The position numbers and the translations under genes were made by a program. Of a stretch of DNA of 57,683 nucleotides, positions 44,101 through 47,100 are shown one piece after another (position 1 is the stretch's first letter; every line of letters starts with the position of its first letter). The DNA comes from Paraspadella gotoi (lineage: Eukaryota; Animalia; Chaetognatha): positions 2,774,777 to 2,832,459 of the forward strand of contig CM119264.1 of the NCBI GenBank assembly GCA_051294375.1, read 5' to 3'. The notes below the pieces were generated by a model, which saw nothing but the letters and a program-made list of their open reading frames with translations, had not been told where the DNA came from and did not search any database.

Positions 44101-47100
44101 GAATTTCATCTTCAATATTATATACTGCAATATGTAAATTAGTTAAAACATTTCTAGGATGTATAATGAGTACTTTATCTCATTTGCATATTGCAGTATA
44201 ATCATAATTGAGTGGAAATTCAAACAAAAAATACTTAAATCCAAAATGTAATATGAAAATATCACAGCTATTTCAAGATGAAAAGCCATATCTAAATTTT
44301 TAATTTACTATGATCGCACACTTTTGTAAAACTTTATCATAATTCTATAATATTTTATTTAAAAAAAAAAACGGTAAGTTACAGCCAAACCTATAAAAGG
44401 CGTAGTAGTTTTTTATATAAAACAGCGTGAACTGCCACGACGACGACGACGTACGTACGACCTACGTACAAAGAAGCAAACCTAAACATCTACTAGAGCC
44501 TGAACCGGCTTCGCCGTCATGGCTCGATAAAATATAATTACCGCTTTGCAAAATTAAAACGTTTTCTCAAGTAAATTTAAAAAAGTAATAAAATCATGAT
44601 GATGATAATTTTTTTATGGTTTTTTTCATTTTTGACCAACTTAACATCGAATATTTTTTTTTAAAAATTATATTTTGTTCAGGCACTTTTTATAAGCTAT
44701 CTGTATCTGGTCATAAAATTTAAAATTTCTCATTTCCTATCTATAAAATAATATAAAAAAAATTAATTACTAGGGAATTGATCATATAAGAAATTTTTCG
44801 TTGAGCCTGTACTAACTCTATATATTCTGACTCACCCCATTGAGTGAGGCTAACCGTCCTTTACTTCTTTCTATCTTTCTTCTTTCTCTCCTACCCCTTT
44901 GCCCTTAAGTCCCTTCTTTAAACCCCTGAACCCTTATCTCACCCCTTGGACTTTTTCTTCACCCTTCCCCCCGAATGAACCCATCAACCTTTTACATCAC
45001 TCTACATCCTTCTACATCACTCCTTTCCTCCATCGGGTCCGGGACCGCTCCTATGGCACCTCTCGGCCTTTGAGGCCATTGATGGACTCGTCCGCTCCGC
45101 TGCAGCTCCAAGCAGCAGCAAGCGTCGCCGACGCAGCGACAGCAGCAACAACAGAACAAGACGGAATCTTCTTCGAAAATTATCACGAGACAGTGGAGGT
45201 GGTCGAGATAAAAATGGCGAAAATGAGTGAATCGATTTATTGAAATCAGAAAAGCGATGAATCGAATTGGCTAATTGTACAAAGTGCATTCATTTTTTGG
45301 CGAGAGAGAGAAATTTGGTTTACATTTGAAATAAACAATTCTAAAAATATTCCATAAGGTAACGTTTGCGACGCGTTGAACAGAGGGAGCAAAATATTCT
45401 TAGCGGGCATTGGAATTTTTAAAGAATTCGGCCGGCGATTATTTACTTCTTACTAATAATAATAATCAGATCTCCACTAGACGGTGAGCGGTGAATGCGG
45501 GGTTGTGTGAAGACTGAAGAGAGAGACGACGTGAATTGAGCGAGATATCACGTGAAAATATAGGATACAAAAGTTATTTGATTTTTGTTTTATGTTTCAT
45601 TATACTAAACTGGAAAGACTCCTAAGTTTCCTTACTATTTTAAAAAACTTTTGTGACAAAAAAGTGTTTATTACAGAGTGACTGTGACAGAATTACCTTT
45701 ATTATGGGCATTAAAGCAAAAATATTAAAATCAAGTAGAATCAAAATTCAATAGAGGATCTTGAACAGGCTCGAACCTGGTGAACATTTTTAAATGAAAA
45801 AAATTTTAAAACATTGATTTGGGAAGAGACTGAGAGAAGAGAGAGAGAGAGAGAGAGAGAGAAGAGAGAGAGAGAGAGAGAGAGAGAGAGAGAGAGAGAG
45901 AGAGAGAGAGAGGCTTTTAACCAAAAATCCAACCAAAAATCCTTAAATCCATTGTAAAACAAGTAAAAGTCTATTTCCATAAATTGATTAAATATTTATA
46001 CATAAACCACTACAACCTATTACTTTCGTTCAACTCCAGCAGAGAGTGGCCCCTCACCCCAGCGTTACCCTCAACAAAACTCACCCAGCAACGATATCTG
46101 CTCCCTGCATCACAAACCTCCTCGCCGAGCATCAGCAGCAGCAGCAGCATCAGCAGCAGCATCAGCAGCAGCGGCTAGCGGGGCTGCACGCTCGCGGCCG
46201 CCGCAGCAGCTGCCCTTACCATGGCGGGCAACAGGGCGAACAGCTTACAGTCCATTTCGAGCGGGTGAGTCTTCTTCGGATTTCTGACTCGCGTGGTCGG
46301 GAGAGAGAGGATGGATTCTCTCTCTCTCTCTCTCTCTCTCTCTCTCTCTCTCTCTCTCTCTCTCTCTCTCTCTCTCTCTCTCTCTCTCTCTCAAAAAAAA
46401 AAAGAAGCGGAGTTGNNNNNNNNNNNNNNNNNNNNNNNNNGGGTGAGTCTTCTTCGGATTTCTGACTCGCGTGGTCGGGAGAGAAGAGGATGGATTCTCT
46501 CTCTCTCTCTCTCTCTCTCTCTCTCTCTCTCTCTTCTCTCTCTCTCTCTCTCTCTTCAAAAAAAAAAAGAAGCGGAGTTGACTGGTCAGTCCGTCCGTAT
46601 CTTAACTTCTCATCTTTCTTTTGATTTGTCTTTTAGTAGTTAAGGCTCATGTTCGTTTTAGAGATTTAAAAGCAAAAATCTAATGAACAATTTAATGATT
46701 TATCTTGCCCATCTTTTGTCACGGAATCTGTCTAGTTTATTCACTCCAGACCCAGAGTGCCGGGTTTTTCTTACAAGATGCGATGAAAACAAACTTACTA
46801 TCAAATCGGTAAGACTGGTCAGTCCGTCCGTATCTTAACTTCTCAATCTTTCTTTTGATTTGTCTTTTAGTAGTTAAGGCTCATGTTCGTTTTAGAGATT
46901 TAAAAGCAAAAATCTAATGAACCATTTAATGATTTATCTTGCCCCATCTTTTGTCACGGAATCTGTCTAGTTTATTCACTCCCAGACCCAGAGTGCCGGG
47001 TTTTCTTATCAACGATGCGATGAAAAACAAACTTACCTATCAAATCGGTACAACCAATACAAAAATCATCCATTTATTTAATAAATAAGCTATCTAGCCC

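What the first reader, a model, noticed from the sequence alone, without database searches (positions are those of the whole stretch)
45188..45489. Polymorphic 287-bp transposon that brings its own frame-preserving splice sites (introner-like)
Seen: the element (TIR AGTGGAGGT/ATCTCCACT, TSD AGAC) sits 1 nt before the donor of a coding exon and is absent from the two other copies of the locus (42504-42518, ~34047-34065). Its second base opens a GT (45193) in the original phase, so the exon could end GAG ACA|GT instead of GAG ACG|GT: Thr either way. A second phase-0 GT follows at 45199. The 3' end has TACTAAT (45451-45457), and the duplicated target supplies an AG (45479-45480). For any AGNN target, splicing from the TIR GT to the TSD AG leaves exactly +3 nt. 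Known: introners in Micromonas and Aureococcus are short DNA transposons with one splice site in the element and one from the TSD. Inference: this may be an active intron-generating family in an animal. If the element is not spliced, read-through stops at TGA 45241-45243 and removes the ETS domain.
Basis: partly seen in the sequence, partly recalled or inferred. Interest (0 to 1): 0.82.

Follow-up and report, generated by a model that had tools for sequence, protein, structure and literature searches.

The report
Mobile insertion beside a splice donor
A short, many-copy piece of jumping DNA, likely the leftover end of a retrotransposon, sits one base before an existing splice site in one allele of an animal ETS transcription-factor gene; it adds no intron here and likely impairs splicing of that allele, so it looks like an ordinary insertion polymorphism rather than an intron-making element.

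Summary
The letters are as described. The insertion is real, multi-copy and polymorphic: public contigs hold filled and empty junctions and copies at other loci. The window's 'other copies' differ almost only by indels and look like redundant haplotypes. The element is about 300 nt, not 287, so the quoted stop is uncertain.

The introner reading fails at this site. Any element GT would only replace the donor of an existing intron. GT45193 is the weakest candidate: all five native donors have G at -1 and it does not. The first AG after TACTAAT is an internal CAG, not the TSD AG. In a likely RNA set, the filled junction runs on unspliced, and contig ends need no splice from the element. They do not exclude one.

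AGT...ACT ends, a 7-nt inverted repeat and a 4-nt TSD fit a Gypsy-type solo LTR better than a MITE (inferred). Family-wide target bias and exonic copies could not be tested because no genome was held. Similar ideas were raised in other genomes.

The parts
45036..45191 (+). Coding exon A of an SPDEF/Ets98B-like ETS gene, filled allele, up to the left TSD. In the empty copy (42348-42512) it is 165 nt, 55 codons, phase 0-0, Gln/Pro-rich
   Evidence: an X5/X6 contig aligns from 45035 to 45191 and carries 308 other letters upstream (table 8)
45188..45191 (+). Left copy of the 4-nt target-site duplication
   Evidence: single copy at the empty sites
45192..45478 (.). Inserted multi-copy element, 287 letters in the window, about 300 in short-read contigs; no tRNA, no Rfam family; likely a solo LTR, a MITE not excluded
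45192..45198 (+). Left 7-nt terminal inverted repeat, starting AGT; the same left boundary is seen at other loci
   Evidence: X1 record 5 aligns from 45192, X2 record 11 from 45191, with 826 and 416 nt of unrelated flank
45193..45203 (+). Three phase-0 GT dinucleotides (45193, 45199, 45202); the first lacks -1 G, the other two have it; none has +5 G
45236..45241 (-). AATAAA on the minus strand, 44 nt from that end (LTR-like position); lies in an error-rich part of the window, so uncertain
45356..45366 (+). Internal donor-like site (GT at 45359), best U1-type match in the element; its use would put stop codons in the exon
45451..45469 (+). TACTAAT followed by the first AG (CAG 45467-45469); 10 of 19 pyrimidines against 13-15 of 19 at four native acceptor sites
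45472..45478 (+). Right 7-nt terminal inverted repeat, ending ACT
45479..45482 (+). Right copy of the TSD; supplies the AG at 45479-45480
45483..45491 (+). Last exon base and the original donor (GT at 45484), intact with the same -3..+8 context as in the empty allele
46037..46264 (+). Tandem CAG CAG acceptor (AG 46038-39 and 46041-42) and exon B
   Evidence: X5/X6 contig of 866 nt starts at 46042
47395..47804 (+). Predicted exons C (47395-47521) and D (47723-47804)
   Evidence: read from sequence; not confirmed by laid RNA
48393..49212 (+). Predicted exons E (48393-48521) and F (48947-49212) encoding the ETS domain
   Evidence: Pfam PF00178 E 9.8e-06 and 2.7e-20; named relatives are SPDEF/D-ETS-4/Ets98B
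42508..42511 (+). Empty site in the cleanest redundant copy
34052..34055 (+). Empty site in the noisy redundant copy

Best explanation
A multi-copy mobile element of about 300 nt, likely a solo LTR of a Gypsy-type or miniature LTR retrotransposon, has inserted with a 4-nt duplication one base before the donor of exon A in one allele of an ETS gene; it creates no intron and likely makes that allele splice poorly. Shown: the insertion, its empty allele, its many copies and the intact old donor behind it. Inferred: exon A is now followed by weak GTs and its strong donor lies about 300 nt downstream behind stop codons, so most transcripts of the filled allele would keep the element and intron or use the old or the internal donor and carry a premature stop. 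A minority may be rescued by the GTs at 45199/45202 or by in-frame skipping of exon A. The empty allele likely supplies the normal mRNA. The GT at base 2 likely follows from the AGT end typical of some LTRs, and the AG at the target is likely chance.
For: Multi-copy: major element contigs are about 50-300 times deeper than the flanks in X1, X2 and X5 (depth is only a rough guide), and single-depth contigs join the element's left end to unrelated flanks (X1 record 5, X2 record 11). Polymorphic: in X1 and X2 the upstream contig ends exactly at 45191 and an empty-allele contig starts 30 letters before that point; X5/X6 hold the filled right junction (table 8). Weak donor: 5 of 5 native donors have -1 G, GT45193 has neither -1 G nor +5 G. 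RNA: X5/X6 (apparently one data set filed twice) look spliced at both acceptors and hold an unbroken contig from the element end through TSD and old donor into the intron, 45451-45744, depth 8.8, against 4 for the upstream intron and 29-32 for exons. The contig ends are explained by the empty allele using both acceptors plus the unspliced filled allele. LTR-like ends: AGT/AnT termini and 5-7 complementary bases are reported for errantivirus-type LTRs (PMC5408687, PMC3601003, passages); animal Helenus TRIMs make 4-bp TSDs (PMC10886601); Sola TIRs are 11 bp or more and Ginger TIRs 40 bp or more with TG...CA ends (PMC10741241).
Against: No junction read from the filled allele was seen either way; only pruned contigs of one likely RNA data set were available. 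Five of the 8 minimal form sets that fit use a spliced filled-allele form together with the distal empty form, and a sixth pairs one with the proximal form. If the assembler collapsed the 3-nt acceptor bubble, a second path from the element or the intron would be needed. Three of five native donors lack +5 G and rely on exon-side AG, so GT45199 is a plausible donor in this animal. The intronic contig may be DNA or pre-mRNA. Both alleles appear in samples S1, S2 and the S3/S4 data, which suits a mild allele. No internal LTR-element sequence, primer-binding site or second LTR was seen, so the LTR label rests on the ends alone (about 60:35 against a MITE).
Confidence: 0.6

Rival explanations
1. 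Donor capture: one of the element's three in-phase GTs (45199 or 45202 more likely than 45193) takes over as donor, so the element is removed with the old intron and the protein gains 0, 2 or 3 codons. Harmless, and still no new intron.
For: All three GTs are phase 0. GT45199 has exon-side AG like three native donors. Each such form, except GT45193 to the distal acceptor, is in 80-96 of 159 sets that fit the contig ends. The filled allele is present in several samples.
Against: No such junction seen. Stronger competitors exist at 45359 and 45484. An unspliced filled junction is present at about a third of exon depth.
Confidence: 0.2
2. Exon A of the filled allele is mostly skipped; being 165 nt and phase 0-0, this removes 55 low-complexity residues and keeps the ETS domain.
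For: Exon length, phase and composition; damage to a donor often causes skipping (general knowledge).
Against: No skipping junction seen; this form was not among those modelled, and the upstream exon was not located.
Confidence: 0.1
3. The family is an active introner: copies landing in exons in sense are spliced from a terminal GT to the TSD AG (+3 nt, AG targets only) or to the internal CAG.
For: GT at base 2, two more in phase, TACTAAT and CAG near the right end. Gap counts imply one more base in the last 28 nt, probably just after the CAG; if so, splicing to the CAG leaves +15, +21 or +24 nt for any target. Introners with 4-bp TSDs and a co-opted 3' site, with added codons, and from solo LTRs are described (PMC9860276, PMC12130899).
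Against: This copy makes no intron. Weak donor, poor pyrimidine tract. TIR-GT to TSD-AG is in 0 of 159 fitting sets. The filled right-junction contig in X5 is unique from the second or third flank base, which is unlikely if many visible copies had AG targets: at 30 copies and 50% AG, P is 0.005 or less, against 0.16-0.55 for random targets (the number of visible copies is unknown and the graph is pruned). An in-frame fit arises one time in three by chance.
Confidence: 0.08
4. On identity only: the element is a non-autonomous DNA transposon (MITE) of a superfamily with 4-bp TSDs, not an LTR. The effect on the gene is the same.
For: Size, inverted ends, high copy number, no coding capacity; MITEs are mostly under 500 bp (PMC10741241).
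Against: Only 7 perfect terminal bases, no extended hairpin (fold z = -0.91); AGT...ACT ends match LTR ends in print; earlier notes report small LTR elements with 4-nt TSDs in this genome (unchecked).
Confidence: 0.35

Closest known systems
Introners with 4-bp TSDs (Chrysochromulina: 5' site carried, 3' site co-opted; Aureococcus family adding 12 nt), Gozashti 2022, PMC9860276 (passages)
   Same: Short non-coding element, 4-nt TSD, GT near one end, AG available from the TSD, possible gain of codons.
   Different: Those form whole new introns in exons at many loci. This copy would at most form the 5' part of an old intron, the case that paper's filter treats as secondary insertion, and no splice is shown.
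Errantivirus-type (gypsy/ZAM/Idefix) LTR ends, PMC5408687 and PMC3601003 (passages)
   Same: AGT...ACT termini, 7 complementary terminal bases, 4-nt target, an AATAAA near one end.
   Different: Target AGAC is not one of the palindromes TATA, CGCG, ATAT; no internal region seen; the end sequence after AGT differs from the Zam motif. No sequence homology was tested.
Animal Helenus TRIMs, Kojima 2024, PMC10886601 (parts 1-3 of 6 read)
   Same: 4-bp TSD, LTR lengths up to about 320 bp, solo LTRs occur.
   Different: No tRNA-derived part: no ARAGORN hit, no GGTTC box B on either strand, no Rfam hit of note.
Copia solo-LTR introners of Panicum virgatum, Gozashti 2025, PMC12130899 (passages)
   Same: Precedent that solo LTRs can act as introns.
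   Different: Plant, Copia, shown as introns; here animal, Gypsy-like ends, not shown.
SOS splicing of DNA transposons, PMC12779559 (abstract and passages)
   Same: Another route by which an exonic element can leave an animal mRNA.
   Different: Needs paired inverted terminal repeats and is imprecise; here only 7-9 terminal bases pair, and intronic copies were not substrates in that paper.

Membership tests
Introner | Insertion into an exon creates a new intron | tested here: not met
   The copy lies 1 nt before an existing donor; intron number cannot rise unless a 3-nt exon forms
Introner | Element spans nearly the whole intron, both ends near splice sites | tested here: not met
   The intron would run on to 46039/46042, about 560 nt past the element; criterion from PMC9860276
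Introner | Spliced at the predicted sites in RNA | tested here: inconclusive
   No junction seen; contig ends neither need nor exclude most forms
Introner | Multi-copy mobile family | tested here: met
   depth and foreign flanks
Introner | Several copies form introns in unrelated genes; target bias for AG | not testable with these tools
   No genome held; no copies in collections; one indirect sign against AG bias
Solo LTR, Gypsy/errantivirus-type or TRIM | Short inverted ends AGT...AnT or TG...CA, about 7 bp | tested here: met
   PMC5408687, PMC3601003
Solo LTR, Gypsy/errantivirus-type or TRIM | 4-6 bp TSD | tested here: met
   4 nt, fixed by the empty site
Solo LTR, Gypsy/errantivirus-type or TRIM | Polyadenylation signal and promoter motifs | tested here: inconclusive
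   One AATAAA per strand, no TATA match; the window sequence is error-rich here
Solo LTR, Gypsy/errantivirus-type or TRIM | Other copies paired around an internal region with primer-binding site and polypurine tract | not testable with these tools
   No genome; loose-end table was cut (24 of 193 rows shown)
Helenus TRIM | tRNA-derived boxes A and B in the LTR | tested here: not met
MITE (Sola or Ginger type) | TIR of 11 bp or more (Sola) or 40 bp or more with TG...CA (Ginger) | tested here: not met
   7 perfect, 8 of 9; lengths from PMC10741241
MITE (any superfamily) | Ends shared with a transposase-encoding element | not testable with these tools
   No genome held

The most novel reading that the evidence does not exclude
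The element is a solo-LTR introner caught while still polymorphic: its AGT end carries three in-phase donors and its other end a branch point and CAG placed so that any sense insertion in an exon is spliced out in frame (+15 to +24 nt) whatever the target, and at this gene it has captured the donor of an existing intron. It would be an active intron-making family in an animal group for which I found no introner paper.
Probability: 0.08. Interest if true: 0.65.

Novelty: new member of a known kind. Interest (0 to 1): 0.2.

Why it matters
As read here it is a routine insertion polymorphism that likely weakens one allele of a conserved transcription factor. It is a small natural test of how a splice donor copes with an insertion one base away. 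It would matter more if the family proved to make introns: animal introners are rare (two animal groups in PMC9860276; a sea urchin and a tunicate in PMC12130899), and a segregating one would allow intron birth to be followed allele by allele. It also shows a trap for sequence-only reading: LTR-type ends that begin AGT give a GT at base 2 for free.

Tried and rejected
No whole genome was held, so no genome-wide copy list. No second copy in the window. Pattern scans: 0 hits for the left-end pattern in metagenome contigs; for an internal 20-mer 2 hits in metagenome, 0 in viral and 1 in prokaryote contigs, all 3 matching only the 20 letters and rejected as chance. No RNA holder is listed on record; X5 is a guess and X6 is labelled DNA but is nearly identical to X5. 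X7 and X9 laid nothing on 45915-46130 and X5/X6 gave no cover on 45915-46041; these holes are not used as evidence. Protein searches for a transcript-derived product spanning exons A and B found nothing. Pfam found nothing in four candidate upstream segments or exon A; the upstream exon was not located. Rfam: one chance-level hit, E 7.6, none at gathering score in the window; no tRNA. Folding is not unusual. One search tested too short a piece of the right junction and wrongly allowed old-donor forms; one search replaces it. Artefact rejected: short-read contigs carry both junction types. Paralogy rejected on indel-only differences. SOS splicing set aside because the inverted ends are very short. 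A paper search for insertion at a donor with TSD gave two general reviews, seen as listings only; NAGNAG papers were seen as listings only.

Full report
Observation. The site is empty at 42508-42511 and 34052-34055. A perfect 7-nt inverted repeat with a 4-nt direct repeat occurs 7 times in the window, this one included, so the ends alone are weak. The empty site is what fixes the boundaries, and given them chance is negligible.

The three copies. The gene region recurs at about 32068-37227, 41837-43320 and 43358-48529. The two cleaner copies differ by 0 substitutions and 11 gap letters over about 700 nt downstream, and by 15 mismatches and 20 gaps over 679 columns upstream; the third copy is much noisier and indel-rich. 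With several 25-N gaps in the window, this looks like redundant long-read sequence of two alleles (my inference, from general knowledge of gap-filled assemblies). Only the last copy has all ETS exons.

The gene. Exons E and F encode an ETS domain, and the named relatives are SPDEF/D-ETS-4/Ets98B proteins of animals. The hit exon is 165 nt, 55 codons, phase 0 at both ends, and rich in Gln and Pro. The next exon begins at a tandem CAG CAG. If it holds, one chaetognath genome paper names LTR retrotransposons as the largest classified repeat class (PMC12460157, passages; background only).

A real, multi-copy, polymorphic element. Eleven runs were listed and 6 were laid. In X1, X2, X5 and X6 the element is far deeper than its flanks: the main contigs give ratios of 52-197, 82-302 and 61-178 for X1, X2 and X5 (contig depth is only a rough guide). 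Single-depth contigs join the element's left end to 826 and 416 nt of unrelated flank, starting at 45192 and 45191. In X1 and X2 the upstream contig ends exactly at 45191 and an empty-allele contig begins 30 letters before that point, which implies that both alleles are present. X5/X6 hold the filled right junction (45451-45744). Short-read contigs carry more letters than the window: 13 in the 12 rows shown of 51, and 4 in the first 63-66 nt of two X1 records. The element is therefore about 300 nt and the stop at 45241 is not secure, though the window has 6 stops in each frame and an open frame of this length and composition has P about 2e-4.

Splice signals. At this site no intron can be gained: a GT in the element would only replace the donor of the old intron, and the TSD AG would leave a 3-nt exon. 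All 5 native donors of the gene have G at -1; GT45193 has A at -1 and no G at +5 and scores lowest in a crude U1 match count. GT45199 and a third phase-0 GT at 45202 have -1 G. A better donor-like site lies at 45359, and the old donor is intact at 45484. At the right end the first AG after TACTAAT is the CAG at 45467-45469; both it and the TSD AG have 10 of 19 pyrimidines upstream, against 13-15 at four native acceptor sites. TACTAAT occurs 9 times in the window, both strands.

RNA evidence. X5 and X6 appear to be one data set. They look like RNA: one contig leaves the reference at the exon A acceptor with 308 other letters, another starts at the exon B acceptor, and exon depth is 29-32 against 4-9 in introns. 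Three contig ends are informative: exon A ends at 45191, exon B starts at 46042, and the filled right junction is unbroken. I tested 8192 sets of 13 splice forms, each with the unspliced filled form; 159 fit. None of the 159 contains GT45193 to the distal acceptor, TIR-GT to TSD-AG, old-donor use on the filled allele, or the unspliced empty allele. The simplest fit is the empty allele using both acceptors plus the unspliced filled allele. But 6 of the 8 minimal sets include a spliced filled-allele form, and GT45193 to the proximal acceptor is in 80 of 159. These contigs collapse variants (10.1101/2024.07.30.605881, passages), so absences are weak. Exon skipping was not modelled. The data neither show nor exclude use of an element GT.

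Target bias. Not testable directly. The filled right-junction contig of X5 becomes unique at the second or third flank base. With 30 visible copies this has P 0.16-0.55 for random targets and 0.005 or less for a 50% AG bias. The number of visible copies is unknown, so this is a hint only.

What kind of element. The perfect inverted repeat is 7 nt and the RNA does not fold unusually. AGT/AnT ends with 5-7 complementary bases are described for errantivirus-type LTRs (PMC5408687, PMC3601003; passages). Animal Helenus TRIMs make 4-bp TSDs and leave solo LTRs (PMC10886601, parts 1-3 of 6), but this element has no tRNA-like part. Sola and Ginger make 4-bp TSDs with longer TIRs (PMC10741241, passages). 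Earlier unchecked notes report small LTR elements in this genome and moved me towards this reading. I put solo LTR at about 0.6 and MITE at 0.35. An AGT end gives a GT at base 2 without any selection for splicing.

The boldest reading left open. Gap counts imply one more base in the last 28 nt of the element, probably right after the internal CAG: X5 record 23 has one more insertion than the three differences known downstream, and the main form's four insertions all lie upstream. If so, splicing from the three GTs to that CAG leaves 15, 21 or 24 nt for any target; on the window's letters it leaves 14 or 20 for the first two. That would be a target-independent design like the Aureococcus family that adds 12 nt (PMC9860276). 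It rests on an unseen base, weak signals and a one-in-three chance fit, so I give it 0.08.

Known context. Introners occur in 175 of 3,325 genomes, animals included (PMC9860276, passages), and in a sea urchin and a tunicate, with solo LTRs acting as introns in a grass (PMC12130899, passages). A search for 'chaetognath' with 'introner' found 0 papers; the supplementary lists of the two papers were not seen. The scan had no look-alike of this sequence, and five notes from other genomes raise similar ideas, mostly without RNA proof.

Verdict. Real and polymorphic, but at this site an ordinary insertion next to a donor, likely weakening one allele. Not shown to be an introner. Interest 0.2.

Noticed in passing
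window 46037-46042: Tandem CAG CAG acceptor on exon B; the X5/X6 contig start at 46042 fits use of the distal AG, with or without one Gln.
   Followed up: partly
window 22739-22989 and 47985-48244: Two copies of a GC-richer repeat of about 260 nt, 82% alike; the second lies in an intron of the ETS gene. No Rfam hit at gathering score.
   Followed up: no
window 45715-45751 and about 44712-44797: Two more short stretches with very high contig depth and many loose ends, likely fragments of other abundant repeats in the flanking introns.
   Followed up: no
window 41263-41604 / 50122-50434; 47038-47246 / 55747-55962; 23204-23422 / 55763-56024: Further two-copy repeats of 200-350 nt at 70-84% identity.
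   Followed up: no
window 47522 and 47805: Two predicted native donors with non-consensus intron sides (AAG then GTTTTC, GTCACA), suggesting that exon-side AG carries much of donor recognition in this animal; not confirmed by RNA.
   Followed up: partly
window 21800-22520: An Ala/Thr/Gly-rich open stretch on the + strand that could be an upstream exon of the ETS gene or of another gene; no Pfam hit in the frames tested.
   Followed up: partly
window 16314-17719, 46580-47050, 53578-55682: Tandem or near-tandem duplications at 90-96% identity, often next to N gaps, likely assembly redundancy.
   Followed up: no
window 10925-11510: Another AGT...ACT pair with 6 complementary bases inside an A run; may be chance.
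   Followed up: no
window 45210-45219: AAAATGGCG near the element's left end, a YY1-like motif (label recalled; position).
   Followed up: no
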